A stretch of 64,000 bases of DNA from Arenicellales bacterium (GCA_965215945.1 CBDCFC010000025.1:214805-278804); one strand, 5' to 3'. Numbered from the stretch's first letter, positions 14,459-61,718 are shown. Numbers and translations are program-made. The notes: generated from the letters alone by a model not told the origin.

Positions 14459-14468
14459 TTAGTCTGAC

Positions 14469-27901: not shown

Positions 27902-28029
27902 TTTTGTTTCCTGGTCGTGACCGTTATAAAATGTTTGCGTTTTTTAAAAAATAAAACGAGCGTTCGTTCTTTTTTTATGTTAATCTATTTCTTATCCCAT
28001 AGCAAGTTAAATATTTAAAGCTTAATCGT

Positions 28030-28761: not shown

Positions 28762-28806
28762 AATTTTATACAATAGGAACCGTACAGAGTTTAAAGAGGT
28801 AATGTA

Positions 28807-30465: not shown

Positions 30466-30524
30466 AATGATTTATCTAATTATTCAATCTCTTTGTAGTG
30501 GCAGGAATTATTTAAGGAAATACA

Positions 30525-30591
30525 TTTCCCGCACTTGTTGCGGGATCTTTTAGTGCAACTCTTTCTTTGGAGACCCGGAATAAATCCGGGG
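30525..30591. repeat. two palindromic repeat modules between fadD and fadH
   Basis: TTTCCCGCACTTGTTGCGGGATC (30525-30547) and GGAGACCCGGAATAAATCCGGGG (30569-30591). Both families recur at 25.1-25.3 kb and 36.4-36.5 kb. Confidence 0.5.
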
Positions 30592-30638
30592 AACGTAGTC
30601 TTGATCAAACGCATCTTGAATTTGGTTTAGTGCAATAG

Positions 30639-32675
<2,037 letters not shown>

Positions 32676-32728
32676 TTAAAGTAATAATTTAGTTATATGT
32701 TCTAATTAATTGATATATTGAGGAAAAA

Positions 32729-35089
32729 ATGAAACGAAATATTCGAAAAGTGGCCGTGCTAGGTGCCGGTGTAATGGGCGCGCAGATTGCAGCACATCTG
32801 GCCAATTCAAATGTGGATACTATCCTGTTTGATCTGCCGGCAAAGGAGGGCGATAAGTCGGGGATTGCTAAAGCCGCTATTCAGAAAATGGCAAAACTCA
32901 AACCAGCCCCGTTAACCACATCGGGTTTAGAGTCGAGAATTAAACCCGCAAATTATGATGAGCATCTGGAAGAACTTAAAAGTTGTGATTTATTAATCGA
33001 AGCGATATCCGAGCGCATGGACTGGAAAAAGGATCTGTATGACAAGATCGAACCTTATGTTGCTAACCACGCTATCTTGGCAACCAATACATCCGGTTTG
33101 GGTATTAATGAGCTGGCGAGCGTGTTAAATGAAAAATTGCGCGAGCGATTTTTGTGTTTGCATTTCTTCAATCCGCCGCGTTACATGCATTTAGTCGAGG
33201 TCATTCCTTGTAACCAAACCAAGCCTGAAGTCTTAGAAGTGCTGGAACCATTTTTTGTCAGCACATTAGGAAAAGGATTAGTGGTTGCCAAAGACACGCC
33301 TAATTTTATTGGTAATCGAATCGGTATTTTCAGCCTTCTGGCGACCATGCACCATGCCGACGAGTTAGGTATTCCGCTTGAGGTGGTAGATCAGATTACA
33401 GGCAAGCCTTTAGGGCGTCCAAAATCGGGCACCTATCGAACCATGGACGTGGTCGGCCTGGATACCATAAAGCACGCCATCAATACGATGGATGTTGGTC
33501 TGAAGGATGATCCCTGGAGTCAATATTACAAAACACCAGCCTATATCGCAGACATGGTAGAACAAGGAGTGTTAGGCCAAAAAACCGGCAAGGGAATTTA
33601 TGCTGAGAAAGGTAAGCTGGTTTTCAGTCCCGCTAAAGGTGACTATGTCACTGCTGACAATAAATTCGATAATGATATTGCAGCGATGCTCAATAGCCCT
33701 AACTGGTCAGAAAATTTCCAGGCGCTAAGAGAATCAGATCACCCACAAGCACAATTCATTTATCGAAGCTTACGTGATTTATTCCACTATTGTTTAGTGA
33801 CGCTGGAAGAGATTGCCAACTGTGCTCGTGATGTTGATCTGGCGATTCGCTGGGGATTTGGCTGGATGATGGGACCGTTTGAAATTATCCAGGCAACGGG
33901 CTTAAAAAACGTCGTCAAAATGCTCAACGAAGAAAGCCAAGCCGGAAACTTGATGGCGAATGTGGAACTTCCGAGTTGGGTTGATGAGATTGATGATATT
34001 CACAACGCTGAAGGTTCTTACTCGCCATTACAAAGAGCGTATATTCCGCTTTCTTCAAGTTCTGTTTATGAGCGTCAGATCCTGCGTGAAAACGTGGTCG
34101 GCTCGATGCCCAATAAACCACTGGGTGAAACCGTATTTGAAACCGATTCTGTGCGCATGTGGCATCAGGGTGATGATGTTGGGATTCTGACATTCAAGAG
34201 CAAGATGCATACGGTTGGAATGGGTGTGATTGAAGGTATTTTGCAGGCAACAGAAGAAGCGGAAAAGAATTTTTCGTCTTTGGTTGTTTGGCATCCTACA
34301 GCGCCATTTAGCTTTGGTGCAGATTTAAAGGAAGCCATGGGTTTTCATCAGGCCGATGAGTTTGAAAAAATTGGCCAGATGATTAACCAGTTTCAGCAGG
34401 CAACAATGTCATTGAAACATTGTTATGTTCCCACAGTCGCAGCGGTGCAAGGCATGGCATTAGGTGGCGGTTGTGAAGTGCAAATGCACTGTGATGTGAC
34501 TGTTGCTGCCCAAGAATCGTATATCGGCTTGGTTGAAGCGGGTATTGGTTTATTGCCGGCGGCCAGTGGTTCCAAAGAAATGGCCACACGTGCAGTTGAC
34601 CTGGCCAAAGGTGGTGATTTAATGCCGCACATTCAGCGTGCTTTCCAGGCCTTAGCGATGGCTAAAGTCTCTGCCAGTGGGCTTGATGCCATTAAACTGG
34701 GATTGATGACTGATCAGGATATGGTGATTGGTAATGCCCATGAACTATTACATGTCGCCAAAGCCCAGGCCAAGGCGCTTGCCGAAGCAGGTTATCGACC
34801 GGTATCCAGAAACCAAAGAGTGAAGGTGGCGGGCAAGCCCGGTAAAGCTACCTTGATGATGATGGCGGTAAACATGCTGGAAGGTAATTTCATTTCGGAA
34901 CACGATTACACGATTGCGGATCGAATTGCGGCGGTATTGACCGGTGGTGATGTGGAAGAAGGCAGTTACGTCACCAATGAGTGGTTATTGAAGCTTGAGG
35001 TTGATGCGTTTGTTGAATTGCTGCAAACCGAGAAAACCCAGGCGCGCATTGCGCATACTTTAACGACTGGCAAGCCACTTAGAAATTAA
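32729..35089 (+). CDS. bifunctional 3-hydroxyacyl-CoA dehydrogenase / enoyl-CoA hydratase (dehydrogenase domain first)
   Basis: 786 aa with an N-terminal Rossmann motif VLGAGVMGAQIA and a C-terminal crotonase-like region (AAVQGMALGGGCE). Confidence 0.85.
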   Translation: MKRNIRKVAVLGAGVMGAQIAAHLANSNVDTILFDLPAKEGDKSGIAKAAIQKMAKLKPAPLTTSGLESRIKPANYDEHLEELKSCDLLIEAISERMDWKKDLYDKIEPYVANHAILATNTSGLGINELASVLNEKLRERFLCLHFFNPPRYMHLVEVIPCNQTKPEVLEVLEPFFVSTLGKGLVVAKDTPNFIGNRIGIFSLLATMHHADELGIPLEVVDQITGKPLGRPKSGTYRTMDVVGLDTIKHAINTMDVGLKDDPWSQYYKTPAYIADMVEQGVLGQKTGKGIYAEKGKLVFSPAKGDYVTADNKFDNDIAAMLNSPNWSENFQALRESDHPQAQFIYRSLRDLFHYCLVTLEEIANCARDVDLAIRWGFGWMMGPFEIIQATGLKNVVKMLNEESQAGNLMANVELPSWVDEIDDIHNAEGSYSPLQRAYIPLSSSSVYERQILRENVVGSMPNKPLGETVFETDSVRMWHQGDDVGILTFKSKMHTVGMGVIEGILQATEEAEKNFSSLVVWHPTAPFSFGADLKEAMGFHQADEFEKIGQMINQFQQATMSLKHCYVPTVAAVQGMALGGGCEVQMHCDVTVAAQESYIGLVEAGIGLLPAASGSKEMATRAVDLAKGGDLMPHIQRAFQALAMAKVSASGLDAIKLGLMTDQDMVIGNAHELLHVAKAQAKALAEAGYRPVSRNQRVKVAGKPGKATLMMMAVNMLEGNFISEHDYTIADRIAAVLTGGDVEEGSYVTNEWLLKLEVDAFVELLQTEKTQARIAHTLTTGKPLRN

Positions 35090-35114
35090 CCTAAGGAAAC
35101 CTAGGAGAACGAAC

Positions 35115-36302
35115 ATGACTAATCAACGAGATGCATATATTGTAAAAGCCGTACGTACGCCAGTGGCTAAATATAAAGGTGCTTTTAAACATGTGCGGCC
35201 GGACGATATGCTGGCCCATGTGCTTAAAGGTGTGGTGGCTGATCAGCCCGAAATAGCCAACGATGTTGAAGATGTCGTTGTTGGCTGTGCAATGCCTGAA
35301 GCCGAGCAGGGTATGAACGTGGCTCGAATCGGTGTGTTACTGGCGGGTTTTCCGGATAACGTACCCGCAGTCACAATCAACCGTTTTTGTTCTTCCGGTT
35401 CCCAGGCTGTCGCCATGGCGGCAGATAAAATTCGTCTTGGTGAAGCAGACGTAATGATCGGTGCTGGAACCGAATCGATGTCCATGGTGCCGATGATGGG
35501 CAACAAGGTCTCATTGAATCCAAAAGTGTTTGCTGATGACAATGTCGCCATTGCCTACGGTATGGGCATAACCGCTGAAAAAGTCGCAGAACGCTGGAAA
35601 GTCAATCGTGAAGACCAGGATGCGTTCGCGGCTGAATCTCATGCTCGTGCTATAAATGCCACTCAAAATGGCTGGTTCAAAGACGAAATTCTGCCTTATG
35701 AAATAGTGACGTCACATCCATCTGCAGACGGGCTGGGCGTTGATACTAAATCTCGAACTATGACTGATGACGAAGGCCCACGCCCCGGTTCAACACCAGA
35801 AGTATTAGGTAAGCTTCGAACTGTATTCAAAGTGAATGGTTCCGTGACAGCCGGTAATTCCTCGCAAATGTCAGATGGCGCAGGTGCTGTGTTACTGGCC
35901 AGTGAAGCAGCGCTGAAAAAATATAACCTTGAACCTATCGGCAGATTTGTCACCTCAGCGGTTGCAGGTGTCGAACCCGAGGTCATGGGAATCGGCCCTA
36001 AGGAAGCAATTCCAATTTGCTTAAACAAGGCAGGTATGACGCTTGACCAACTTGACTGGATCGAGCTCAACGAAGCATTTGCCGCACAGGCGCTGGCTGT
36101 CTGTAATGAACTTGATCTGGACAAATCCAAAGTCAATCCCAACGGCGGTGCCATCGCACTCGGTCATCCGCTTGGCGCAACCGGAGCCATCCGTACAGCG
36201 ACCCTGATGAACGGCCTTCAACGTACCGGCGGTAAATACGGCATGGTGACGATGTGTATTGGTACGGGTATGGGCTTTGCAATGATTATTGAAGCAATTT
36301 AA
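35115..36302 (+). CDS. fadA: acetyl-CoA C-acyltransferase (3-ketoacyl-CoA thiolase)
   Basis: 395 aa with the NRFCSSG active-site Cys, NEAFAAQ, GGAIALGHPLGATG and CIGTGMG. Confidence 0.9.
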   Translation: MTNQRDAYIVKAVRTPVAKYKGAFKHVRPDDMLAHVLKGVVADQPEIANDVEDVVVGCAMPEAEQGMNVARIGVLLAGFPDNVPAVTINRFCSSGSQAVAMAADKIRLGEADVMIGAGTESMSMVPMMGNKVSLNPKVFADDNVAIAYGMGITAEKVAERWKVNREDQDAFAAESHARAINATQNGWFKDEILPYEIVTSHPSADGLGVDTKSRTMTDDEGPRPGSTPEVLGKLRTVFKVNGSVTAGNSSQMSDGAGAVLLASEAALKKYNLEPIGRFVTSAVAGVEPEVMGIGPKEAIPICLNKAGMTLDQLDWIELNEAFAAQALAVCNELDLDKSKVNPNGGAIALGHPLGATGAIRTATLMNGLQRTGGKYGMVTMCIGTGMGFAMIIEAI

Positions 36303-45292: not shown

Positions 45293-47050
45293 TTAAATCG
45301 ATAAAACTCGTCCGTTTCGTATATTAATTTTCTCGCCGCTAAATCGAGTTAGATAGAATCCATCAAAGTCGACTAATCTGGAATGATCTTGCAGCATGGA
45401 GACCGCCATCTGTTCACCGGCCTTAAGTCCCTGGATGCCATCCTGGCGGTAGTGGACACCGGCGGCATTGCGGCCGATTGAAATATTGTTGGCGAGTTTG
45501 TTGATTTCACCGCCAATGGTCAGGTCAGGGCCAAAATAAGGTTCCAGCGCTGTGCCGGTATCGTTGGTGGTGACGGGTTCCGGGAATACGAAATCTTCAT
45601 TAAACATCGCTTTTAATACCGTAGAGCATGCCCCGGCCACACAGGCATGACCGGCCGGATAAGATGGGTGCGTGGGGGAACCTTCGGTAAAGGCCTGTGG
45701 CAACAAGAAGCTGCCGTTTTGATTATAAATAAGCCTGAGTGCATCGCAGTTAAGGATTTCGTCATGGAGTTCGTATGAGCGTTGACCATTAATATGAAAA
45801 TGGATCCGGCCGGCAAAAACTTCGGGTCTTAAATACCGGTGTGCAACCCACTTTTGATACCATGCGGCACACAAACTCAGATTTGCCGCACGCGAGACTA
45901 AATCCAGAATATAGGCAACACCGAAAGAGGTAAACGGCACTCGATTTTTATTGCCCAAATGGTATGGATTGCCGGGGTTTAACGCTTCACGACCAAACTC
46001 CAATAAAATCAATGCCGCCTGACAATAAGCCTGATAGGGTAGGTCACGGTGCACATATTCACCCAGTGAACGATGGTTAAAAATATATCGGGGCTGACTT
46101 TCAAACTGAATTTGTTCTAGTGGCTGTGCGCCTTGCTGCACATTTAACCAGTTAGCCACACTGGTCATAAAATCAATTGCCGGCCAGAGGAGTTTGATAT
46201 TGTTGCTCAATAATAGTAGGGCCCCCAGGGTACAATTTGCCATAACAACTGGCTGATGTATGGGCCAACCAGATCGCCATCGGTTTCACCGCGAAACAGA
46301 GTTTGGCTGCTGATTTGACCATTAATTTTAGGTCCCGGCACTACGCTGAATGCGTTCAAATCAGTCACGGCAGCACCGACTTCAGGGGCAGATGCATATT
46401 GTCGGTAGGGTAAATCTCGCAGTAGCGCTTGCCAGTAAAGTTCTCCCATTTCACTGGCTAGCGAGCTGCTTCGAAAAGTATGGGCCGGGTCAATTCGTGT
46501 TGCATTGCTATCAAGGGCCTCGATTGAATACATATAGGCCGCTTCTGGGTTTACCAGCCCGCGTTGTGAATGTTGAGATAAACGGATGGCTTCAAAATCC
46601 CTTTCTCGACCTGTTCGCATCGCTTTAACCAGTTGCTCAAACGCCGCACTTTTGACCTCACCAAATTGATTGTGAGGCAATGCCTTGGTATAGCTTGCAT
46701 AATAATGCTGATCAGCATAACGTTCTTCATCGCCATTAGTGCTTTGAGCGGGCACGTGCGTTTGCCTGGCGCCACTGTTCCAGCATGGCATCAAAGCGTT
46801 TTCTGAGCGTGATGAAATACCTTCGCTTGTTTGTATCTCTAATCTTTCTGAAGTGATTTTTGTAATTATAATTGTAGGCATAAGCATTGTTGCTGGAGTC
46901 GGAAACAGGCGTCAAGACACCAGTAGTTGCGGCCCCTGCAAAAACACCTGCTTTTAAAAATTTTCGTCTGGAGCTGTTTGTTTGATCACGATTGGATGGA
47001 TATGCTTTAGTTTTAAGTCGTGGCAATAAATTGCGGCAATAATTTATCAT
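45293..47050 (-). pseudogene. vanadium-dependent haloperoxidase / PAP2-like protein with Tat signal, split over three frames
   Basis: The Tat motif SRRKFLKAG is in frame A (46736-47050). NGDEERY...TKALPH is in frame B (46207-46887). HPSYPAGHA and GRNAAGVHYRQD active-site motifs are in frame C (45293-46243). Confidence 0.65.
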
Positions 47051-50520: not shown

Positions 50521-50916
50521 ACCTGTTATTTATCTGAAGCAAAAATTTATTTTCCGATCCTGATGGTAATGGTTTAGAGATGTATTGTAATACCCGTGCA
50601 GAATACTCAACTAAAAATTGGAACGGTATTGACAAAAACCTAACTGAGGAAATTTTGTTAGCCACGCTAAATTAATTCTCGAATTAACTATCTTTAAATG
50701 CCTGATTTTCGACTAAAATAAAAATAATGAATCCAGAATAATTTATTAATAACAATAACTTAAATTCAATATTTAATTTTATTTCTAGACAAAGTGACAA
50801 TTGTTCACAAAGTCTTCCCATAAAAAACTTAAAATTCGCCGCTGGTTTATATCAAGCAATAACGCTTAAACCCCTAGGTTCTAAATACCCTAAGACTCAA
50901 ATTGGAGATCGTAATA

Positions 50917-52395
50917 ATGCACAAAAATATTCTTGAAACTAAGCTGCTATTGGCTCTTTTAATTGCCACAGCATTACTTTCTGGATGTTCGACTTTTTCG
51001 AAGGTTCAAGAAGAGGAACTGCAAGACGAAAATGCTACTTTAGCACAAGCAACGACAGAAGCAGCCGCAGCCTCAACTGAAACGGCATCAATTGATTCCT
51101 CCTTGTTTCCACCGAACCCTCAACCAGGTCATTGCTATGCGCGTGTTTTAATTCCAGCTCAATATGAAACTGTAACTGAGGAAGTTGTTGTTCAGGAAGC
51201 AAGTGAAGAGATTGAAGTTATTCCAGCTGAATATGATTGGGTGGAAGAAACCGTTTTAGTAAAAGAAGAATCTGTCACGCTCGAAACTGTTCCGGCCGAA
51301 TACGAGCAAGTTACTGAAGAAGTCCTGATCAAACCTGAAACTGTAAAACTCATTCCTGTTCCGGCTGAATATGAAGAAGTTATGGAAGAAGTAATGGTTA
51401 AACCTGAAACCGTAAAACTGGTCGAAGTTCCAGCTGAATATGAAACTGTAACTGAAGAAGTGTTGGTCAAACCTGAAACCGTAAAACTGATTGCAGTTCC
51501 GGCCGAATATGAAGAAGTTATGGAAGAAGTAATGGTTAAACCTGAAACCGTAAAATTAGTTGAAGTTCCCGCACAATACGAAACTATTACCGAAGAAGTG
51601 CTAGATAAGCCAGCTCATACTGTGTGGAAAAGCGGTTCCGGCTTAATTGATAATGCTTTGCAAACTCGTACAAATGAAAGCACTGGTGAAATCATGTGCT
51701 TAGTCGAGGTGCCGGCCACTTACAAAATGGTTACTAAAAAGGTTCTAGTTGCTGCAGCTACCACTCGAGAAGAAGTAATTCCAGCAGAGTACAACACAGT
51801 GACAAAAACTGTTGTAAAAACACCAGCGACAACCCGTGAGGAAATTATTCCTGCTGAATACGGAAGTGTGACAAAAACTGTTGTAAAAACACCAGCAACA
51901 ACCCGTGAAGAGATTATTCCGGCCGAATACAAAACGGTGACGAAAACTGTTGTAAAAACACCAGCGACAACTCGTGAGGAAATTATTCCTGCTGAATACG
52001 GAACCGTAACCAAAACTGTGGTCAAAACCCCGGCAACGACTCGCGAAGTTACCGTTCCAGCAGAGTACGCAACTGTCCGCAAACAAGTTGAAGTTTCTCC
52101 AGCCAAGGAGAACAAGACAATTATTCCTGCGGAAGTGGCAACTGTCGAGAAACGTAATAAAGTTTCTGAAGAATCGTTGTTATGGCGTGAAGTTCTGTGT
52201 GATGTAAATATGACGCCAGCACTAGTTTCTGACTTACAGGAAAAACTACAGGGTGTTGGTTATTACAATGGCCCTGTTGATGGTATCTACGGTCCAATGA
52301 CACAGCGTGCGGTTAACAGTTATGCTTCGTCTCAAGGTCTGCCAACGGGAACCAACTATGTTTCAATGGATACAGCAGAGGCTTTGGGTTTGTAA
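50917..52395 (+). CDS. repeat-rich lipoprotein with C-terminal peptidoglycan-binding domain
   Basis: Start set at MHKNIL (ATG 50917) with lipobox LLSGCS. About thirteen 23-aa PAEY repeats. The C-terminus LQEKLQGVGYYNGPVDGIYGPMTQRAV is PG_binding_1-like. Confidence 0.7.
   Translation: MHKNILETKLLLALLIATALLSGCSTFSKVQEEELQDENATLAQATTEAAAASTETASIDSSLFPPNPQPGHCYARVLIPAQYETVTEEVVVQEASEEIEVIPAEYDWVEETVLVKEESVTLETVPAEYEQVTEEVLIKPETVKLIPVPAEYEEVMEEVMVKPETVKLVEVPAEYETVTEEVLVKPETVKLIAVPAEYEEVMEEVMVKPETVKLVEVPAQYETITEEVLDKPAHTVWKSGSGLIDNALQTRTNESTGEIMCLVEVPATYKMVTKKVLVAAATTREEVIPAEYNTVTKTVVKTPATTREEIIPAEYGSVTKTVVKTPATTREEIIPAEYKTVTKTVVKTPATTREEIIPAEYGTVTKTVVKTPATTREVTVPAEYATVRKQVEVSPAKENKTIIPAEVATVEKRNKVSEESLLWREVLCDVNMTPALVSDLQEKLQGVGYYNGPVDGIYGPMTQRAVNSYASSQGLPTGTNYVSMDTAEALGL
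51151..52122 (+). repeat. in-frame 69-nt tandem repeats (two diverged blocks)
   Basis: Units start at 51151, 51220, 51289, 51358, 51427, 51496 and 51565 (acidic type), and at 51709, 51778, 51847, 51916, 51985 and 52054 (basic/Thr type). The units at 51358 and 51496 are nearly identical, giving a 138-nt super-period. Confidence 0.85.
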
Positions 52396-52507: not shown

Positions 52508-53035
52508 ATGAAAGTATTAGCATTTGCTGCCAGCAGCAGCACACAATCGATTAATAAAAAACTGGTTACATATGCATGCAGCCTGTTAGAAAACGCCGAA
52601 GTGGAAATTCTAGATTTAAACGATTTTGAGATGCCGCTATTCAGTGTTGATTGGGAAAAAGAAATTGGCCATCATGAATTGGCCAAAGCTTTTCTGGATA
52701 AAATTGCGAACGGCGATGCGGTGATGATTTCGTTTGCTGAACATAATGGTTCTTATTCTGCCGCTTATAAAAATCTTTTTGACTGGTGTTCTCGAATTAA
52801 TCCTAAAGTGTATCAGGGCAAGCCTATGGTTTTGCTCTCAACATCTCCCGGACCGAGAGGGGCAGGCAATGTTTTGGCTTTAGCGACCAATTCAATGAAG
52901 TTTTTTGACGGCGATGTGAAAGCAACATTTTCCATGCCCAGCTTTAACGAAAATTTCAATGTTGAAAAGGGAATAGTCTGTAACAATGAACTGGACTTAA
53001 AGTTACGCGAAGTTGTAGCTAATTTGACCAGTTAA
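52508..53035 (+). CDS. NAD(P)H-dependent FMN reductase family protein
   Basis: 175 aa with MKVLAFAASSSTQSINKKL and HNGSYSAAYKNLFDW. Confidence 0.8.
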   Translation: MKVLAFAASSSTQSINKKLVTYACSLLENAEVEILDLNDFEMPLFSVDWEKEIGHHELAKAFLDKIANGDAVMISFAEHNGSYSAAYKNLFDWCSRINPKVYQGKPMVLLSTSPGPRGAGNVLALATNSMKFFDGDVKATFSMPSFNENFNVEKGIVCNNELDLKLREVVANLTS

Positions 53036-53339
53036 TACCCAAGCGCCAAATAAGCTGGTCAAATCGGTCCTGACCATAAAACGCTTCATTATTGTAGACA
53101 TAGCAGGGTACTCCCCAATGGCCTGCTTTGATCATTTTTTCATGATTGGTGGCAAAAATGTCGTTATACAAGTGCTTGTTGTTTTCCATCTGTTCAATGA
53201 GCTTAATATAATCAATACCCGCTCGTTCAACTGCCCGTTCAAGATGCTTATCCGTGTACCAGTTTTTAGTCTTCCCATTCCAGATTAAACGCGTGACCTG
53301 GTTTAAGAATTCCCAGCCTGAACCCAGTCCGTTTGCAGC
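53019..53339 (-). pseudogene. 3' remnant of a DsbA-like / 2-hydroxychromene-2-carboxylate isomerase family gene
   Basis: Minus-strand frame reads ...WYTDKHLERAVERAGIDYIKL...MIKAGHWGVPCYVYNNEAFYGQDRFDQLIWRLG. It has no start codon or N-terminal thioredoxin CxxC part. It is absent from the ORF track. Confidence 0.55.
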
Positions 53340-54123
53340 TCATGTGCTTGAAAAACAAGGTGTCACCATTGTTGACGGTCAGGCAGCGGTTTACGAAGCA
53401 CGATCAATCAAAAGCCAAGACGAAATTACAGCAATGAAAATCGCCATGGCCGCCTGTGACGATGGCTTTAAACGCATGCGTGAGCAACTCAAATCCGGTA
53501 TGACCGAGGTCGAATTATGGGCGTTATTGCATCAGGCCAATATCGAGTGGGAAGGCGAATGGATTAATGCCCGTTTGTTAGCGTCAGGTCCGCGTACCAA
53601 CCCCTGGAGCCAGGAGGCCTCCTTGCGGGTGATCGAACCGGGCGATATTGTGGGTTGCGACAGTGACTTGATTGGACCTTACGGCTACGCCGCTGATATT
53701 TCTAGAACCTGGGTGGCCGACGGCAGGCCCACCGATCGGCACCGAAAACTGTATTCGCTATCCTATGAGCATGTTCAGGCGAATATCGAAATGTGTAAAC
53801 CAGGTGTGACTTTTTTTGAATTAATGGAGCGCAACTATAAACTTCCCAAAGGTTTGAGTGAGTAAATGTTTACCTCTTATGCCCACGGTATAGGACTTGG
53901 GAATGAATGGCCGATTATCAAATATGCTGACAAAGCCGATTTGCATGGCGGCTACGGCGGCGGTTACGACGGTGTATTGCAATCGGGCATGACGCTGTGT
54001 ATCGAAAGCTATGTGGGCGAAGTCGGTGGCCCAGACGGAATAAAACTAGAAGAACAAATACTTATCACCGAAAATGGACCAGAGTCACTCTCTCAATCCG
54101 AGTTTGAAGAAGATTGGTTCTGA
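53332..54123 (+). pseudogene. M24-family metallopeptidase-fold gene (creatinase/prolidase-like), 5'-truncated and with an in-frame TAA
   Basis: Homology begins near the end of the N-domain (AAHVLEKQGVTIVDG...ARSIKSQDEI). ORFs 53254-53865 and 53866-54123 share a frame and are separated only by TAA (53863-53865): ...KGLSE*MFTSYAHGIGLGNEWP. Confidence 0.65.
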
Positions 54124-55632: not shown

Positions 55633-56943
55633 TTATCCCAATACCGAAAAGCTGCTTTCCTCATTTATCACTCGTCTTCTGGAATAGAACCCTGTGTCGA
55701 AGTTTCGATTCAAGTAGGGCAGGTTGAATTGCAATGGATTATTATCGTGATCATTGCCGTTTTCACAGTATTCGACTAGCTCGGCCATCAGCTTGCCTGC
55801 AATCGGCGCATTTTTGTATTGATTACCGCTGCTGCCGCAGGCCATGTAAAAACCGGGCAGTTGTGACTTGTCGTAGATCGGAATCCAGTCGTCACTGACA
55901 TCGTATAAATCAACTACGCCTTTGAGTCGACTCGGAATGCCTACGGTCGGTACTCGTTGAGCATAACGCATGGCCTGGGTTTGCCACTGATCGGTGAACT
56001 CACGATCATAGTCTGTATCATCTTCAACCCAGGTGTGATCGTCGCAAGGTGGATCCTCACTACCGATTAAAATATGGCCGCCTTTTTCCGGGCGCATGTA
56101 GCAGGATATATCGCTGTCCGACACCACCATGCCAACACCATCAGCAAACATACCTTCGGGTTGTGGGACGTGCACAACCTCCTGGCGTAAGGCCCGGGTT
56201 TTAATATTCATATCATCCAGCACACCGGCCATATTATTGATCTGTGCTGAAGCTGGGCCGCCTACATTGATCACCACTGGAGCTGAAATTTCTTGTCCAT
56301 CGTCAAGTTTGACACCGCTTACTCGTCCGTCCGGTTGCAATATTTCCACCACGGTGCGATTGAATAAAAATTCTGCACCTTTGTTTTCCGCTGCACGCTG
56401 TAAATTATGACTTGAAAGCGCGGGGTCGCTCACGTAACCAGCTGTTGGGAAGAACACGCCGCCGTTAACTTGACTGCCAGTGGTTTTGCCAAATGCGGGA
56501 TCATCCATCCGTTTGGCAGGTGAAAATGTTCGCAGATCAATACCCGGGATGTGCGCTTTGATTTGATCAGCATCCCAATGCTCATAGGGGATACCAATTT
56601 CATCACAGTTGTTGATATGCGATTGCAGATAACCATTGGCTTCGGTTTTCATGACCAGGCAGCCTACATTGTAATAATCGGCCAGGCCACGTTCGTCGGT
56701 AAACTCCAGGTAATCGGCCCAGTCACGCCAGTAATGAAAACCTTCGTAAGCGAACTCAGTGCCTTCGAGGGTTGAATAATGCACACGAATAATCGCACAT
56801 GATCCCGAAGTAGAGCCATGGCCGGCTTCGCCGTTGCGGTCGATGGATAAGGTTTTCCAGCCTTTTTTAGCCAGCTCAAAAGCCGTTGCCGTGCCAATGA
56901 CACCTGCTCCAATTATGATTGCGTCATAGTTTTTACTCATCAT
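55633..56943 (-). CDS. FAD-dependent oxidoreductase (DAO family, sarcosine oxidase beta-like)
   Basis: 436 aa with the N-terminal YDAIIIGAGVIGTATAFELAKKG dinucleotide fold. Confidence 0.8.
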   Translation of the reverse strand: MMSKNYDAIIIGAGVIGTATAFELAKKGWKTLSIDRNGEAGHGSTSGSCAIIRVHYSTLEGTEFAYEGFHYWRDWADYLEFTDERGLADYYNVGCLVMKTEANGYLQSHINNCDEIGIPYEHWDADQIKAHIPGIDLRTFSPAKRMDDPAFGKTTGSQVNGGVFFPTAGYVSDPALSSHNLQRAAENKGAEFLFNRTVVEILQPDGRVSGVKLDDGQEISAPVVINVGGPASAQINNMAGVLDDMNIKTRALRQEVVHVPQPEGMFADGVGMVVSDSDISCYMRPEKGGHILIGSEDPPCDDHTWVEDDTDYDREFTDQWQTQAMRYAQRVPTVGIPSRLKGVVDLYDVSDDWIPIYDKSQLPGFYMACGSSGNQYKNAPIAGKLMAELVEYCENGNDHDNNPLQFNLPYLNRNFDTGFYSRRRVINEESSFSVLG

Positions 56944-56982
56944 TATCTCCTGTTAACCCTGTTTCAATTAACCCTTGTTGTA

Positions 56983-58526
56983 TTAACTAACGGGCGGCGC
57001 ACCGCCTTGTTGCGTTCGCTTTTCAATATAAGCATCTAATTCTTCAACGATTGATTCGTCGATCTTAGGTGCTTCAAATTCATTCAATTTTTGTTTCCAA
57101 ATAGTGGTGGCACGTTCGGTTGCAGTTTTTGAACCGGCTTCGGTCCAATTACCAAAATTTGACCAGTCAGCGACTAATGGCTGATAAAAAGCGTTCTTGT
57201 AGCGCTGCATGGTGTGTTCAGTCGAAAAAAAATGTCCACCAGGCTGAACATCCTTAATCGCTTCAAAACCGATTTCATCAGCACTAGCGGAAGTGGGTGC
57301 ACACAGTTCCGCGATACCCTGCACGACTTCCATATCGCAAATAAATTTTTCAAATGAAATCGTCAAACCGCCTTCAAGCCAGCCGGCGGTGTGAATTGGC
57401 GTGGTCGCACCGGCCAAGACTGAGGCCCAGATACCCATCTGGTTTTCATTGGCGCCTTGTGCATCACAAATATTGGAAGCACTGCCGGCACCCGCGCGCC
57501 AGGGTAAGCCAATATATCGAGCCAGTTGGCCTGAGCCCAAAGTAGCCTTAACATGTTCAGGCGTACCAAAAGCCGGTGCTCCCGATTTCATATCGACATT
57601 TGAGCTGAAGTTACCATACATAACCGGGCTAGCCGGATTAGTGATTTGTGCCAAGGTAATACCGGCTAATGATTCAGCATGTTGTAATGTAATGGCGCCG
57701 GCAACTGTAATTGGAGCCATGGCACCGGATAAACAGAACGGCGTAATAATCGAAAGCTGTCCCCATCTGGCAAAATCGATAATGCCCTGAGCCATTGGAA
57801 TGTCCAACTGGCGCGGCGAATTGGTGTTAATTATCGTGTAACAATAAACATTTTGTCTGAATTGTTCAGCATCTACGCTCCGGGCAATCTGGAACATTTC
57901 AAAAGCTTGTTCAACCTGGGGCGTGCCTCTGGAAAATAAAAATGGAAACTTGTCCGACAGCAGGATTTGAGCACGTACCGTCGCGTAGTGTCTTAAGTGA
58001 GTTGGTATATCCTGTGGCTCCACAAACGGAACGATAATATGTAAGGCATCGAAGCTTTGTGTTAATCGGAGCAGGTCTTCAAAGTCTTCAAGAGTGCCTG
58101 CACGACGCCCGCGTTCACAATCTGTCACGTTGGGGCAGCCGGCCCCAGCTCCAAACATCAACGCACCGAGTTCCAGAGTGAAGTTGCGCTCCTCCACTCC
58201 AGTGACAACAGGAATTGATTTTGGTGCCGTTTCTAATGCCTGAGTAACAATATCCCGGCCTATACGAACCATTTGCGTTTCTTCATCGACAATTGCGCCA
58301 GCTTTTTGTATATTTCAATCGCTTCAGGTAATAAGACTTTGATACCTAACTCTTCCAGCACTCTTAGAGCAGTATCGTGAATTGCAGCGATCTCGTCGTG
58401 CGAAAAAACTGTTTGTGGCGTAAAGGGGTTACGAAGCAGTCGATAATTTTTTTGTCTCGCCGTTGAACCGGCATTATCTTGATGACTCGTTCGACCGCGC
58501 CTGCGTCTTGCCTGAGCGACCATCAA
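56983..58526 (-). pseudogene. MttB-superfamily (non-pyrrolysine, MtgB-like) methyltransferase, frameshifted in this sequence
   Basis: ORFs 58260-58526 and 56983-58272 are collinear with MttB-family proteins. The frames join if one A is added to the run at 58304-58308 (minus strand TAC AAA AAG CTG becomes YKKAGAIVDEETQMVRIGRD). Confidence 0.75.
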
Positions 58527-59191
58527 ATTCTCCGACCCTTTGTTGTTTGATTTAATACACCTGATCGGATTATTTTACGGCCTTCGTGAGCTTGTTTTTT
58601 TGTGGGCTTCACGCCGGCAAATGAAACGACGTAGTCTTCAAAATAAGACAACCGGGTTTCAAAAGGCTCTTGAATTTCCAGGGCGTAATAACCGATTTGC
58701 ATAAAATACAAAACCCTGGCTCGGATGAATGCCTCTTTTTTGGGATAACCGTGGGCGGTAAACATGGTTTTGATTGCGTCTAAGCGTTTATTATCTTCAT
58801 CGTCAACTAATTGATTGATGGATTTATCCTGATGAGCCCAGGCACGAATGGCGGCATCTAATCGTGGATTGAAACTTTTGATGTCCATCCAGCAACTAAA
58901 GACATTGGCAATGGCCTCAACAATACCGGATGCAGGTTTGCCGGCTTGTTCGAGCATGCTGCGGGTGTTGGTATTCCGCCAGATGTTAACCAGTTCATCA
59001 AGCAGTTCTTTCCTGCCTTCAAAATACCAATAAAAACTGGCCCGTGAGACACCAAGTTTTTTTGCCAGAATCATCACCTTGGTCTGCTCGATGCCTTCCT
59101 CGATCAAAGTATTCAAGGCAACTTGTATCCAATCATCGCGAGTAACTTTTGTCTGTGGTCGAGGTTGTAATTTGTGAACGTTTTCTGCCAT
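58523..59191 (-). CDS. TetR-family transcriptional regulator (BetI-like context)
   Basis: 222 aa with the HTH VMILAKKLGVSRASFYWYF. Its stop overlaps the MttB start by 4 nt. Confidence 0.8.
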   Translation of the reverse strand: MAENVHKLQPRPQTKVTRDDWIQVALNTLIEEGIEQTKVMILAKKLGVSRASFYWYFEGRKELLDELVNIWRNTNTRSMLEQAGKPASGIVEAIANVFSCWMDIKSFNPRLDAAIRAWAHQDKSINQLVDDEDNKRLDAIKTMFTAHGYPKKEAFIRARVLYFMQIGYYALEIQEPFETRLSYFEDYVVSFAGVKPTKKQAHEGRKIIRSGVLNQTTKGRRI

Positions 59192-59207
59192 GGATCAAAT
59201 GTAAATC

Positions 59208-59229
59208 ATCTAGACACGTATGTCTAGAT
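59208..59229. promoter_or_regulatory. candidate TetR operator in the divergent promoter region
   Basis: Perfect 9-bp arms ATCTAGACA-CGTA-TGTCTAGAT, 17 nt upstream of the TetR start and 66 nt upstream of the DMGDH-like start. Confidence 0.4.
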
Positions 59230-59294
59230 TATGTATGATTCAGCTTTACTTTGCAAAGCGATTCATCATCTATGGTGAAAAAAGAGGAGTCAAT

Positions 59295-61718
59295 ATGAAA
59301 TCAAATTATCAGGTCGTGGTCATCGGCGGCGGTGTGGTCGGTGCCTCGGTTATATATCACCTGGCTAAATACGGCTGGACGGATGTTTGTATTATCGAGC
59401 GCAATGTTCTGACGGCTGGTTCGTCCTGGCATGCGGCAGGTGGCATACACGCCTTGAACGCGGATCCAAACATGGCCGCGCTTCAGGCTTACACCATCGA
59501 CTTGCTGTCAGAAATTGAAGAGGAAAGCGGCCAGGACATCAACTTGCACATGACCGGCGGCATTACTGTTGCATCGGCACCCGCGCGCTGGGAATGGCTG
59601 CAATCGGCTTACCGTATCTTTCAGACCATCGGTATTGAAGACTGTTATTTGATGACTCCTCAAGAAATAAAAGAAAAATGTCCCATCATGGATACCGAGG
59701 GTGTAATTGGCGGTTTATGGGCAGATCGTGAAGGTTATATTGACACCACTGGAACCGTGCACGCCTATGCCAGGGCCGCTAAAAAAAGAGGAGCCGATGT
59801 CATTGAACACAATCGAGTACTTGAACTTAACCAACGTAATGATGGCAGCTGGGATGTGGTGACTGAAAAAGGAAATGTTCATGCTGAGCATGTTGTTAAT
59901 GCCGGCGGGCTTTGGGCCAAACAAGTAGGCCGTATGGTTGGGTTGGAATTGCCTGTTTCGCCGCTTGAGCATCATTACTTAGTGACGGAAACTATTCCGG
60001 AAGTGGCTGCGTTAGATTTTGAAGTGCCAATGACAGTTGACCTGGAAGGCTTCACCTACATGCGCCAGGATCAACATGGCATTTTGGTCGGTATTTATGA
60101 GATTAATCACAAGCACTGGAATGTCGATGGTGCGCCCTGGAGTTACGGCATCGAGTTGATTCAGGAAGACACAGATCGCATTGCTGATGAATTGACTATG
60201 GCCTTTAACCGCTATCCCTGTCTGCAAGAAGTGGGAATTAAAAACTGGGTCAACGGTGCGTTTACATTTTCACCGGATGGTAATCCTTTGGTTGGACCGG
60301 TTCGAAGTGTTAAAAACTACTGGTTGGCCTGTGGTGTTATGGCAGGTTTCCTACAAGGCGGCGGTGTCGGTAAGACATTAGCAGAATGGATGATTCATGG
60401 TGATACTGAAGCAGATGCCTGGTCTATGGATATTGCCCGTTATGGTGACTTCGCCTCTAACCGTGAATACATCAAACAAACAACCGGTCAATTCTATTCC
60501 CGCCGTTTTGTGATGACGTATCCGAATGAGCAATTGCCCGCAGGTCGTCCACTGAAAAAGTCATCAGCTTATGATGCCATGACCAAAGCGGGTGCTTTAT
60601 GGGGATGTAGTTGGGGACTGGAAGTGCCCTTAATGTTTGGGCCTGAAGGGTTTGTTGAAGAACCAACTCTTAAGCGTTCTAATGCCTTTGATGTAGTGGC
60701 TGAAGAATGTAAAGCAGTTCGTGAGAAAGTTGGCTTATTGGATATTTCCGGTTTTTCCCGTTATGAAGTCTCTGGCGTTGATGCCGAAGCTTGGTTGAAT
60801 AAAATGATGTCTACCCGATTGCCTAAACCAGGTCGAGCGCGTTTAGCCGTCATGCTGTCACCGGAGGGTAAGCTCAAAGGTGATTTAACGCTGTTTAACT
60901 GGGGTGATGGCAGTTGGTGGATCATGGGTTCCTATTATTTGCGTGAATGGCACATGCGCTGGTTTGAAGACCATATTACAGCCGATGACGGGGATGTGAC
61001 GGTACGTGATATTTCTGATGCGGTGGTCGGCTTTTCGATTTCCGGGCCTAATGCTAGAGATGTTCTCGCCAAACTCACTCACGAAGACGTCAGCAATGAA
61101 GCCCTGCCATTTATGGGTTGTAAAACCATGGATGTTGGATTGATTCGCGCCAAAGTAGGTCGGCTTTCAGTGGTGGGTGAGCGCGGATACGAGATCAACT
61201 GCAGTGCTGCGGAACATATCACGCTGCGGGAAATTCTGCTTGAAACTGGGGCCGAGTTTGATATTCGTGAAGTCGGTTATTACGCATTAAACTCATTACG
61301 TCTGGAAAAAAGTTTCGGTATCTGGTCGTGCGAATTCCGCCAGGAATATACACCCGGCATGACCAGTATGGATCGCTGGATCGACTTCAGCAAAGAAGAC
61401 TTTCATGGTCGCGAAGCGGCTCTAAAAGAGAAAGAAGAAAATTCGGCTTCGATGAAATTAGTGACGCTTGAAATTGACAGTAAAGATGCGGATGCCAGCG
61501 GTTATGAGCCAATCTGGAAAGACGGCAAGCGCATCGGTTATGTCACCTCAGGTGGTTATGGCCATACAATTGGCAAAAGCTTGGCTATGGCTTTGGTTGA
61601 ACCTGATCTTGCAACACCCGGCACGGAGTTGAGTGCTCACATTGTCGGTGTTGAATGCGGTGCCAGGGTCATCGAGCCTTCGCCTTATGATCCAAGTGGT
61701 CAAAATATGCGCGGCTAA
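59295..61718 (+). CDS. dimethylglycine dehydrogenase-like FAD oxidoreductase fused to a GcvT-type folate-binding aminomethyltransferase domain
   Basis: Start set at MKSNYQVVVIGGGVVGAS (ATG 59295, AAGAGGAG Shine-Dalgarno). 807 aa. The C-terminal half is GcvT-like (GYEINCSAAE, YYALNSLRLEKSF). Confidence 0.85.
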   Translation: MKSNYQVVVIGGGVVGASVIYHLAKYGWTDVCIIERNVLTAGSSWHAAGGIHALNADPNMAALQAYTIDLLSEIEEESGQDINLHMTGGITVASAPARWEWLQSAYRIFQTIGIEDCYLMTPQEIKEKCPIMDTEGVIGGLWADREGYIDTTGTVHAYARAAKKRGADVIEHNRVLELNQRNDGSWDVVTEKGNVHAEHVVNAGGLWAKQVGRMVGLELPVSPLEHHYLVTETIPEVAALDFEVPMTVDLEGFTYMRQDQHGILVGIYEINHKHWNVDGAPWSYGIELIQEDTDRIADELTMAFNRYPCLQEVGIKNWVNGAFTFSPDGNPLVGPVRSVKNYWLACGVMAGFLQGGGVGKTLAEWMIHGDTEADAWSMDIARYGDFASNREYIKQTTGQFYSRRFVMTYPNEQLPAGRPLKKSSAYDAMTKAGALWGCSWGLEVPLMFGPEGFVEEPTLKRSNAFDVVAEECKAVREKVGLLDISGFSRYEVSGVDAEAWLNKMMSTRLPKPGRARLAVMLSPEGKLKGDLTLFNWGDGSWWIMGSYYLREWHMRWFEDHITADDGDVTVRDISDAVVGFSISGPNARDVLAKLTHEDVSNEALPFMGCKTMDVGLIRAKVGRLSVVGERGYEINCSAAEHITLREILLETGAEFDIREVGYYALNSLRLEKSFGIWSCEFRQEYTPGMTSMDRWIDFSKEDFHGREAALKEKEENSASMKLVTLEIDSKDADASGYEPIWKDGKRIGYVTSGGYGHTIGKSLAMALVEPDLATPGTELSAHIVGVECGARVIEPSPYDPSGQNMRG

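What the first reader, a model, noticed from the sequence alone, without database searches (positions are those of the whole stretch)
55633..61718. Putative complete betaine-to-glycine demethylation locus using an MttB/MtgB-like enzyme with no corrinoid partner, and with that gene frameshifted
One operon on the minus strand encodes a TetR regulator (58523-59191) and an MttB-superfamily methyltransferase without a pyrrolysine codon (56983-58526). The methyltransferase start overlaps the TetR stop by 4 nt. The same operon also encodes a SoxB-like FAD oxidase (55633-56943). A DMGDH-like FAD/GcvT fusion (59295-61718) is transcribed divergently. From established knowledge, the characterised non-Pyl MttB members (MtgB, MtcB, MtpB, MtyB) demethylate quaternary amines in anaerobes and pass the methyl group to a separate corrinoid protein. 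DMGDH converts dimethylglycine to sarcosine, and SoxB-type oxidases convert sarcosine to glycine. As inference, the three enzymes would cover glycine betaine (or a related betaine) to dimethylglycine to sarcosine to glycine in one locus. I see no B12-binding protein or corrinoid:THF methyltransferase anywhere in the window, so the methyl acceptor for the first step is unexplained. The MttB reading frame is broken at an A5 run (plus-strand T-run 58304-58308). With one more A it reads continuously …EAIEIYKKAGAIVDEETQMVRIGRDIV…. This may be a sequencing error, a recent inactivation or slippage-prone expression.
Basis: partly seen in the sequence, partly recalled or inferred. Interest (0 to 1): 0.6.

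Follow-up and report, generated by a model that had tools for sequence, protein, structure and literature searches.

The report
Frameshifted betaine-type methyltransferase gene cluster
This is an ordinary TetR-controlled gene cluster for stripping methyl groups from a betaine-like compound; its vitamin-B12 helper proteins are most likely encoded elsewhere in the genome, as in other aerobic marine bacteria, and its first gene has a one-base deletion that may be a sequencing error or a very recent knockout.

Summary
The minus strand carries tetR, a frameshifted MttB-family gene and a DAO-type FAD oxidase. A DMGDH-type gene is transcribed divergently. Restoring one base gives a 513-aa protein that matches PF06253 end to end.

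The closest relatives are Arenicellales MAGs (89-90% identity). They carry the same four genes with mttB intact. The DMGDH-like/MttB/TetR trio recurs in Mesorhizobium and Leisingera.

The "missing corrinoid partner" is not a puzzle:
- Aerobic marine bacteria are known to run MtgB enzymes with unlinked MtgC (B12-binding) and MtgD (pterin-binding) proteins (PMC12478193).
- Six metagenome loci of this same MttB subclade carry B12-binding, DUF1638, MTHFR and Pterin_bind genes next to mttB.

The substrate is unproven. The carboxylate-binding Arg and His of MtgB are invariant. The two aromatic residues that hold glycine betaine are replaced by small residues across the subclade.

The frameshift shows no relaxed constraint, no stimulatory RNA structure and no conservation. 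It is either an assembly error or a very recent inactivation. The same window holds two more 1-nt indels in another gene and true gene remnants.

This is a new member of a known kind, of low to moderate interest.

The parts
59295..61718 (+). DMGDH-type FAD dehydrogenase fused to a THF-binding GcvT domain (807 aa). Proposed to demethylate the tertiary amine.
   Evidence: Pfam DAO+FAO_M+GCV_T+GCV_T_C. 537 bits over the full length to human and rat DMGDH structures 5l46 and 4pab. 96% identical to the Arenicellales orthologue. A homologue lies within 4 kb of the subclade's mttB in at least 69 of 86 loci. GAGGAG lies 5 nt before the ATG at 59295.
59208..59229 (.). Perfect palindrome ATCTAGACA-N4-TGTCTAGAT in the divergent promoter region; the probable TetR operator.
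   Evidence: Inverted-repeat and pattern scans. It overlaps the -35-like hexamers of both divergent promoter-like sites. The arms are identical in L004, L005 and L002, and differ by one base in L003 and L086. The central 4 nt vary.
58523..59191 (-). TetR-family regulator (222 aa), translationally coupled to mttB.
   Evidence: PF00440. Weak BetI and AcuR similarity only. The orthologue sits immediately upstream of mttB in all Arenicellales loci, and a TetR orthologue lies near mttB in 49 of 86 loci.
56983..58523 (-). MttB-superfamily (non-pyrrolysine) methyltransferase gene, disrupted by a 1-nt deletion. The repaired product is 513 aa.
   Evidence: Repaired translation matches PF06253 1-500/500 at 626.7 bits. 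89-90% identical to intact 513-aa Arenicellales proteins. 260-280 bits to the structures 4yyc, 2qne and 9yce. The pyrrolysine position of MttB 7xcl aligns to Gly.
58303..58307 (-). Frameshift site: minus-strand TAC AAA AAG CTG, where relatives have TAY AAA AAR GCN.
   Evidence: The downstream RNA is no more structured than shuffled controls.
58260..58262 (-). Premature TAG that ends the shifted frame after 88 codons.
55633..56940 (-). 435-aa DAO-family FAD amine oxidase/dehydrogenase. Proposed to act on the secondary amine. It is not a bona fide SoxB.
   Evidence: PF01266 at 182 bits. SoxB and N-methyltryptophan-oxidase models fall far below their cutoffs. 92% identical to the Arenicellales orthologue. 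The family is 67-73% conserved across marine Proteobacteria. It sits beside an MttB gene in L089-L091.

Best explanation
This is a TetR-controlled catabolic module for stepwise N-demethylation of a carboxylated quaternary amine. Glycine betaine is the simplest candidate. The module belongs to an Arenicellales (Gammaproteobacteria) genome.

Inferred regulation: TetR binds the conserved palindrome between the two divergent promoters, and an unidentified effector releases it.

Inferred pathway:
1. The MttB-family enzyme takes one methyl group from the quaternary amine. It hands it to a cobalamin-binding protein of the MtgC type.
2. A pterin-binding methyltransferase (MtgD type) passes the methyl group on to tetrahydrofolate. 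Both helpers are encoded outside this window, as in Ruegeria and Phaeobacter.
3. The DMGDH-type enzyme oxidatively demethylates the resulting tertiary amine onto THF.
4. The 435-aa DAO enzyme oxidises the secondary amine.

In this assembly mttB carries a single-base deletion in a short homopolymer. That would abolish the first step and probably lower DAO expression by polarity. I cannot tell whether this is an assembly error (about 50%) or a very recent real inactivation (about 45%). It is not an old pseudogene and not a conserved recoding site.

Shown: gene identities, synteny, the operator, the lesion, and the conservation pattern. Inferred: the substrate, the order of the steps, and the use of unlinked MtgC and MtgD in this genome.
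For: - Gene identities.
- The four-gene module is conserved with intact mttB in Arenicellales loci L001/L005, L004 and L002. L003 and L086 lack the DAO.
- DMGDH-like, MttB and TetR are linked in Mesorhizobium and on Leisingera plasmids.
- DAO and MttB are linked in pelagic contigs.
- The operator palindrome is conserved.
- Literature precedent: aerobic MtgB works with unlinked MtgC and MtgD (PMC12478193). The mtgB1 and mtgC knockout phenotypes in P. inhibens agree.
- Subclade members at 57% identity with the same active-site signature sit next to B12-binding (PF02310+PF02607), DUF1638, MTHFR and Pterin_bind genes.
- The Arg312 and His348 equivalents (R343 and H378 here) are invariant in 121 plus 81 subclade sequences.
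- The lesion is recent or artefactual. dN/dS is about 0.02, and the window lineage has 11 unique residue changes against 10 and 17 in its relatives.
Against: - No MtgC or MtgD could be shown for this genome or for any Arenicellales genome.
- The aromatic pair that cages the trimethylammonium group in D. hafniense MtgB (Y97, F356) is replaced by A/S/C/G and by Gly in the whole subclade. Glycine betaine is therefore not secured.
- The GBT-induced R. pomeroyi MtgB1 and MtgB2 are not DMGDH-linked. This subclade may correspond to one of the uncharacterised paralogues.
- The DAO is absent from most loci of the subclade (4 of 86).
- No transporter is linked.
Confidence: 0.7

Rival explanations
1. The pathway logic is the same, but the substrate is not glycine betaine. 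It would be another carboxylated quaternary amine, such as proline betaine, gamma-butyrobetaine, carnitine or another amino-acid betaine. The DMGDH-like and DAO enzymes would act on the corresponding tertiary and secondary amines.
For: - Y97 and F356 of MtgB are replaced by small residues in all 200-odd subclade sequences. Y97A and F356L raise the Km of MtgB by more than 300-fold.
- The paper notes that the aromatic pair is not conserved in MtcB, MtpB, MthB or MtyB, whereas Arg312 is.
- Aerobic genomes carry up to seven pfam06253 paralogues of unknown substrate.
- The GBT-induced R. pomeroyi MtgB1 and MtgB2 lie in different gene contexts.
- The core module has only two demethylases in most lineages.
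Against: - The linked enzyme is a full-length DMGDH homologue at 537 bits to mammalian DMGDH.
- Choline sulfatase and GDPD genes lie near the module in relatives, which points to choline and betaine metabolism.
- Glycine betaine is the most abundant marine betaine.
- The residues of the validated aerobic MtgB1 are unknown, so the aromatic-pair rule may not hold for aerobic enzymes.
Confidence: 0.4
2. The frameshift is a sequencing or assembly artefact, and the organism has an intact, functional mttB.
For: - It is a single-base loss in an A6/GG context.
- The gene is otherwise under the same strong purifying selection as its intact orthologues.
- The regulatory region and all partner genes are intact.
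- The same 64-kb window has two more 1-nt indels at short runs in a haloperoxidase gene. That is about one indel per 20 kb, typical of low-coverage long-read assemblies.
- The nearest relatives come from long-read metagenome assemblies at 7-12x, judging from their record names.
Against: - The sequencing technology and coverage of this contig are unknown.
- The window also holds lesions that indel errors cannot produce. These are an in-frame TAA plus a 5' truncation in an M24 gene, and a dsbA remnant. Real gene decay therefore occurs here.
- Two indels 50 nt apart in one gene look more like decay of an already dead gene than like independent errors.
Confidence: 0.5
3. The frameshift is a real, very recent inactivating mutation, so mttB is a young pseudogene. 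The organism has lost the first demethylation step but keeps the DMGDH-type enzyme.
For: - The lesion is in the deposited assembly, where the 429-aa fragment is a called gene.
- Neighbouring genes show bona fide decay and rearrangement, and there is an IS4 transposase nearby.
- The module sits in different genomic contexts in relatives, which suggests a dispensable accessory trait.
Against: - There is no second lesion and no excess of amino-acid changes on this lineage.
- Homopolymer indels are the commonest assembly error.
Confidence: 0.45
4. The site is a functional -1 ribosomal frameshift or other slippage site that regulates MttB output.
For: In the zero frame the site reads C AAA AAG. This differs only at the first base from the dnaX-type A AAA AAG heptamer (established knowledge). 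A -1 slip there would regenerate exactly the ancestral ...YKKAGAIV... sequence.
Against: - Every relative is in frame at this site.
- The downstream 87 nt fold no better than shuffled controls, with z = +0.87.
- There is no Shine-Dalgarno-like stimulator upstream.
- A5 is too short for transcriptional slippage.
- Any deletion inside a run trivially creates such an apparent rescue.
Confidence: 0.04
5. The enzyme works without a corrinoid protein in this lineage, for example by direct methyl transfer to THF in concert with the DMGDH-like partner.
For: No B12-binding or pterin-binding gene lies within 10 kb of mttB in the window or in 87 loci from Arenicellales, Mesorhizobium and Leisingera. The DMGDH-like THF-binding partner is almost always adjacent.
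Against: - Six metagenome loci of the same subclade do carry the full B12-binding, DUF1638, MTHFR and Pterin_bind set beside mttB.
- Unlinked MtgC and MtgD are experimentally shown to serve MtgB in roseobacters.
- Every characterised family member is corrinoid-dependent.
Confidence: 0.03

Closest known systems
Aerobic MtgBCD glycine betaine demethylase of Ruegeria pomeroyi and Phaeobacter inhibens (Mausz et al. 2025, PMC12478193; bioRxiv 10.64898/2025.12.19.695462)
   Same: - A pfam06253 methyltransferase in an aerobic marine proteobacterium.
- The corrinoid (MtgC) and pterin (MtgD) components are not encoded beside it.
- There are several paralogues per genome.
- Downstream DMG and sarcosine demethylation genes are often nearby in other marine bacteria.
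   Different: - The GBT-induced R. pomeroyi MtgB1 and MtgB2 lie next to guaA and an outer-membrane protein gene, not next to DMGDH and TetR.
- Orthology to the validated MtgB1 could not be tested.
- MtgC and MtgD are not demonstrated for this genome.
- The gene here is frameshifted.
Desulfitobacterium hafniense MtgB (PDB 2QNE and 9YCE; PMC13080624)
   Same: - The same fold family, at 260 bits over the full length.
- It is a non-pyrrolysine member.
- The carboxylate-binding Arg312 and His348 are conserved.
   Different: - Only about 32% identity.
- Y97 is replaced by Ala and F356 by Gly.
- The host is aerobic.
- There is no adjacent MtgC or MtgA.
Sinorhizobium meliloti putative trimethylamine methyltransferase (PDB 4YYC)
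   Same: It is the best-scoring solved structure, at 280 bits. It comes from an aerobic proteobacterium, and it shares the AGWLEGGL motif with Gly at the F356 position.
   Different: It keeps Tyr at the Y97 position. Its function is unknown. S. meliloti plasmid homologues are about 46% identical to the window protein.
Mammalian dimethylglycine dehydrogenase (PDB 5L46, 4PAB) and Arthrobacter dimethylglycine oxidase (1PJ5)
   Same: The domain architecture is identical, and the 807-aa protein aligns over its full length at 537 and 280 bits respectively.
   Different: Substrate specificity was not tested. Bacteria carry many paralogues of this fusion with other amine substrates.
Heterotetrameric sarcosine oxidase beta subunit (SoxB) and monomeric sarcosine oxidase
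   Same: They share the DAO-family FAD fold, and SoxB gives the best PDB hits for the 435-aa protein.
   Different: - Similarity is very weak: 41 bits to PDB SoxB, and 76 bits against the 529-bit cutoff of TIGR01373.
- There are no soxA, soxD or soxG genes.
- It belongs to its own highly conserved 435-aa family.

Membership tests
MttB superfamily (PF06253) | Full-length match to the family profile | tested here: met
   The repaired protein matches profile positions 1-500 of 500 at 626.7 bits, E = 2e-188. The unrepaired gene encodes only fragments of 88 and 429 aa.
Non-pyrrolysine MttB members (MtgB, MtcB, MtpB, MtyB type) | No in-frame UAG at the pyrrolysine position of MttB | tested here: met
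   The X (Pyl) of M. barkeri MttB 7xcl aligns to Gly in AGAGSAS. The repaired frame has no internal stop.
Non-pyrrolysine MttB members acting on acidic quaternary amines | Conserved Arg (MtgB R312), and usually His (H348), that bind the substrate carboxylate | tested here: met
   R343 and H378 of the window protein align to R312 and H348. Both are invariant in 121 database and 81 metagenome subclade sequences. The residue roles come from PMC13080624.
Glycine betaine methyltransferase MtgB, D. hafniense type | Aromatic pair (Y97, F356) giving cation-pi contacts to the trimethylammonium group | tested here: not met
   The Y97 position is Ala here and A/S/C/G across the subclade. The F356 position is Gly in all.
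Glycine betaine methyltransferase MtgB, D. hafniense type | Adjacent cognate corrinoid protein and corrinoid:THF methyltransferase | tested here: not met
   None in the 64-kb window.
Aerobic MtgBCD system (PMC12478193) | MtgC (B12-binding) and MtgD (pterin-binding) present somewhere in the genome, with a DUF1638 or RamA reactivation factor | not testable with these tools
   Only 64 kb of the genome is visible, and the source contig is masked from look-ups. Indirect support: subclade members in L154, L155, L158, L160, L167 and L169 have these genes next to mttB.
Aerobic MtgBCD system (PMC12478193) | Orthology to a genetically validated MtgB1 (P. inhibens PGA1_RS07270) or to the GBT-induced R. 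pomeroyi SPO2108; induction by glycine betaine | not testable with these tools
   Those sequences could not be retrieved. Their gene neighbourhoods differ from this one.
Dimethylglycine dehydrogenase family | DAO + FAO_M + GCV_T + GCV_T_C architecture and full-length similarity to DMGDH | tested here: met
   (537 bits to 5l46_A over residues 3-794). Substrate specificity was not tested.
Sarcosine oxidase beta subunit (SoxB, TIGR01373) | Score above the family cutoff, and accompanying soxA, soxD and soxG genes | tested here: not met
   76 bits against a cutoff of 529. No other sox subunits are in the window.
Programmed -1 ribosomal frameshift site (dnaX type) | X XXY YYZ heptamer, a downstream stimulatory structure, and conservation of the shifted arrangement in relatives | tested here: not met
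   The heptamer is C AAA AAG, with a mismatch at the first base. The downstream fold has z = +0.87. All relatives are in frame.
TetR-family repressor with divergent operator | N-terminal TetR HTH, and a palindromic site in the regulated promoter region | tested here: met
   PF00440. The 9+4+9 palindrome at 59208-59229 is conserved in five related loci. Binding was not tested.

The most novel reading that the evidence does not exclude
In Arenicellales this DMGDH-linked MttB subclade, which lacks the aromatic betaine cage of MtgB, might work without any dedicated corrinoid protein. It would pass the methyl group to tetrahydrofolate directly or through its ever-present DMGDH-like, THF-binding neighbour. 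That would be a cobalamin-independent quaternary-amine demethylase.
Probability: 0.03. Interest if true: 0.8.

Novelty: new member of a known kind. Interest (0 to 1): 0.25.

Why it matters
The locus adds an Arenicellales example to the recently recognised use of MttB-family, cobalamin-dependent demethylases by aerobic marine bacteria.

More usefully, it draws attention to a large, uncharacterised subclade found in Mesorhizobium, roseobacters, Arenicellales and pelagic lineages. This subclade is defined by two features:
- tight linkage to a DMGDH-type gene and a TetR regulator;
- small residues in place of the two aromatic residues that bind glycine betaine in MtgB.

If the subclade turns out to take a different betaine, it would mark a further route of osmolyte turnover and of cobalamin demand in soil and sea.

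The frameshift itself matters mainly as a quality flag for this assembly.

Tried and rejected
- **Arenicellales corrinoid partner:** I could not look for MtgC or MtgD in the source or relatives' genomes. Exact look-ups of window proteins are masked.
- **Loose B12-motif regex on the 86 loci:** it gave only implausible chance hits.
- **Supplement of PMC12478193:** it has no Arenicella entries. The Arenicellales UBA868 preprint and the sponge-symbiont paper gave nothing decisive on B12.
- **Rfam scan of the window:** no cobalamin riboswitch or any other family.
- **Extra gene in the two closest relatives:** it follows the DAO and turned out to be an ordinary biosynthetic-type acetolactate synthase large subunit. 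It is absent here and gives no clue to the substrate.
- **Old pseudogene:** rejected, because there is no excess of amino-acid changes.
- **Programmed frameshift:** rejected.
- **Functional N-terminally truncated product from the 429-aa ORF:** considered unlikely. It would lack 84 conserved residues that match about the first 80 profile positions, and no good ribosome-binding site precedes Met85. This was not tested.
- **Possible link between CAATTG motifs and the indels:** dropped, because the motif occurs 28 times in the window.

Full report
**What is there**

On the minus strand lie three genes:
- a TetR-family gene at 58523-59191;
- an MttB-family gene split into an 88-codon ORF (58260-58526) and a 429-codon ORF (56983-58272);
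- a DAO-family FAD oxidoreductase at 55633-56943.

On the plus strand, transcribed divergently, an 807-aa protein (59295-61718) has the domains DAO, FAO_M, GCV_T and GCV_T_C.

Inserting one A into the minus-strand A5 run (plus-strand T-run 58303-58307) gives a continuous 513-aa protein. It matches PF06253 over all 500 profile positions at 626.7 bits.

Minor corrections:
- MttB most likely starts at the ATG at 58523-58521, behind a GGAG, and overlaps the tetR TGA by one base. The TTG start gives the 4-nt overlap.
- The DAO most likely starts at its second ATG (56940) and is 435 aa long, as in its homologues.

**Where it comes from**

The nearest MttB relatives are intact 513-aa proteins from Arenicellales (Gammaproteobacteria) MAGs at 89-90% identity. 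The next group, at 65-69%, is Mesorhizobium. Exact-sequence look-up shows that the window belongs to a 297,841-bp contig held by NCBI and ENA. The 429-aa fragment is a called gene there, so the lesion is in the deposited assembly.

**Conserved anatomy**

- Arenicellales loci L001/L005, L004 and L002 carry the same four genes in the same arrangement. L003 and L086 lack the DAO.
- In 86 loci of this MttB subclade, a DMGDH-like gene lies within 4 kb in at least 69. A TetR orthologue does so in 49, and the DAO in only 4.
- In Mesorhizobium the DMGDH-like gene ends 13 nt before mttB.
- On a Leisingera plasmid the order is DMGDH-like, P450, MttB, TetR.
- The 435-aa DAO belongs to a very conserved family, 67-73% identical across marine Proteobacteria.
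- In pelagic contigs L089-L091 the DAO sits divergently beside another MttB, 58% identical to P0001. GFA, TauD and GcvT genes are nearby.
- The tetR/DMGDH intergenic region holds a perfect 9+4+9 palindrome, ATCTAGACA-N4-TGTCTAGAT (59208-59229). It overlaps the -35-like boxes of both divergent promoter-like sites. Its arms are conserved in all five related loci while the centre varies. This is the probable TetR operator.

**The "missing corrinoid partner"**

The window really has none. The evidence:
- Pfam scans of most ORFs of 100 aa or more.
- phmmer with the four E. coli MetH domains against every six-frame ORF of 60 aa or more.
- phmmer with a subclade-linked MtgC/MtgD/MTHFR/DUF1638 set.
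- A motif scan.

This is the known arrangement, not an anomaly.
- Mausz et al. 2025 (PMC12478193) showed that R. pomeroyi grows on glycine betaine using pfam06253 proteins together with MtgC (SPO2160) and MtgD (SPO1863). These are unlinked and shared with a split methionine synthase. Such genomes carry up to seven pfam06253 paralogues.
- A P. inhibens study confirmed this with mtgB1 and mtgC knockouts.

The metagenome scan then gave direct comparative support for this subclade. In L154, L155, L158, L160, L167 and L169 the MttB is 57% identical to the window protein and has the same active-site signature. The mttB gene there is divergently adjacent to:
- an MFS transporter;
- a 232-aa protein with B12-binding_2 and B12-binding domains;
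- DUF1638;
- PF13769;
- an MTHFR;
- a Pterin_bind protein.

The same searches detect these proteins easily. The negative result for the window and for the 87 Arenicellales, Mesorhizobium and Leisingera flanks is therefore meaningful. In those lineages the helpers are simply encoded elsewhere. Whether this particular genome has them could not be tested.

**Substrate**

- The protein is a non-pyrrolysine member. The Pyl position of MttB 7xcl aligns to Gly.
- Picking et al. 2026 (PMC13080624) define four glycine-betaine contacts in D. hafniense MtgB. R312 and H348 hold the carboxylate. Y97 and F356 cage the trimethylammonium group. Y97A and F356L raise the Km several hundred-fold.
- In the window protein, and in all 121 plus 81 subclade sequences examined, the Arg and His are invariant (R343 and H378 here). 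The Y97 position is A/S/C/G and the F356 position is always Gly.
- The enzyme therefore very probably acts on a carboxylated quaternary amine. It fails the test for the D. hafniense-type betaine pocket.
- The linked 807-aa enzyme is a full-length DMGDH homologue at 537 bits to human and rat DMGDH.
- Choline sulfatase and GDPD genes lie near the module in relatives. Glycine betaine therefore remains the simplest candidate. I put it at roughly 45%, another betaine at about 40%, and the remainder on something else.
- The GBT-induced R. pomeroyi MtgB1 and MtgB2 lie in other gene contexts. Their sequences, and that of P. inhibens MtgB1, could not be retrieved for a phylogeny.
- The DAO is not a SoxB. 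It scores 76 bits against a cutoff of 529, and 41 bits to PDB SoxB. Its role as the secondary-amine oxidase is inferred from linkage only.

**The frameshift**

- Relatives read TAT AAA AAA GCA (L004) or TAC AAA AAG GCG (L005). The window reads TAC AAA AAG CTG, so one A or one G is missing.
- Against L004, L005 and L002, dN/dS for mttB is 0.02-0.05, the same as for the neighbouring genes. The window lineage has 11 unique residue changes, against 10 and 17 in its two closest relatives. There is no sign of relaxed constraint. The lesion is therefore either very recent or not real.
- A -1 slip on C AAA AAG would recreate the ancestral peptide. That is trivially true of any deletion inside a run.
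- The downstream 87 nt fold no better than shuffled controls (z = +0.87). No relative has the shift. A5 is too short for transcriptional slippage. I give functional recoding about 4%.

Context cuts both ways.
- A vanadium haloperoxidase homologue (45293-46887) is broken by two further 1-nt insertions about 50 nt apart. My conceptual repair aligns without gaps to a 577-aa relative across the junction. Three indels in 64 kb fits a low-coverage long-read assembly. The nearest relatives come from assemblies at 7-12x.
- The 53.0-54.1 kb segment also holds lesions that indel errors cannot make. These are a dsbA 3' remnant fused to a 5'-truncated DddP-like M24 gene, which in addition has an in-frame TAA. 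An IS4 transposase is present.

My estimate is about 50% artefact and 45% real recent inactivation. If the lesion is real, step one is lost, and the DAO downstream is probably under-expressed through polarity. The divergently transcribed DMGDH-type gene is untouched.

**Verdict**

The locus is a new member of a known kind of system. The only moderately novel aspect is that it belongs to a widespread, uncharacterised, DMGDH-linked MttB subclade with an altered substrate pocket.

Noticed in passing
window 45293-46887 (-), lesions at 46222-46226 and within 46171-46185: A vanadium-dependent haloperoxidase homologue is split into 226-aa and 316-aa ORFs by two separate 1-nt insertions about 50 nt apart (a G4 to G5 run, and an extra A in GGCAATTGAT).
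   Followed up: yes
window 53034-54123: This is a gene-remnant patch. The 3' half of a dsbA homologue (53034-53345, minus strand) abuts a 5'-truncated DddP-like M24 peptidase (53254-53865, plus strand). The M24 gene also has an in-frame TAA at 53863-53865, and the rest of its domain continues in 53866-54123. In relative L002 an intact dsbA and a PhoH/PIN gene occupy this position.
   Followed up: partly
L154, L155, L158, L160, L167, L169 (e.g. L169 337-7409): Soil and peat metagenome contigs carry a full MtgBCD-like cluster around an MttB of the same subclade. The genes are Pterin_bind, MTHFR, PF13769, DUF1638, a 232-aa B12-binding protein and an MFS transporter, divergent from mttB.
   Followed up: yes
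L089-L091 (e.g. L089 5078-8141): In abundant pelagic contigs, whose DAO cluster has 121 member sequences including TARA data, the conserved 435-aa DAO family is divergent from an MttB (58% identical to P0001). FA_hydroxylase, GFA, TauD, LysE and a stand-alone GcvT gene are nearby. No DMGDH fusion is present.
   Followed up: partly
L001 12920-14794 and L004 12900-14741: In the two closest Arenicellales relatives the tetR-mttB-DAO operon is followed by a biosynthetic-type acetolactate synthase large subunit (TIGR00118, 679 bits). This gene is absent from the window. The four-gene module sits in different genomic contexts in different relatives.
   Followed up: partly
window 12314-13207 (+): An IS4-type DDE transposase (PF01609) lies next to an Opp-like ABC transporter operon (13313-19216) and a glycerophosphodiester phosphodiesterase (19264-20175).
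   Followed up: no
window 50902-52395 (+): A 497-aa predicted lipoprotein is built from many tandem copies of a PAEYE-[TE]-V-[TM]-EEV-type motif.
   Followed up: no
window 25439-36302: A fatty-acid beta-oxidation cluster: a FadE-type acyl-CoA dehydrogenase, a putative TetR-type regulator (identified by eye only; no Pfam match), an acyl-CoA ligase, a 2,4-dienoyl-CoA reductase-like enzyme, FadB and a thiolase. It is unrelated to the finding.
   Followed up: no
P0003 (ENA contig, 6.5 kb): A 720-aa call fuses the TetR and MttB domains in a 76%-identical relative. This is probably another indel or lost stop at the overlapping tetR-mttB junction in a metagenome assembly.
   Followed up: no
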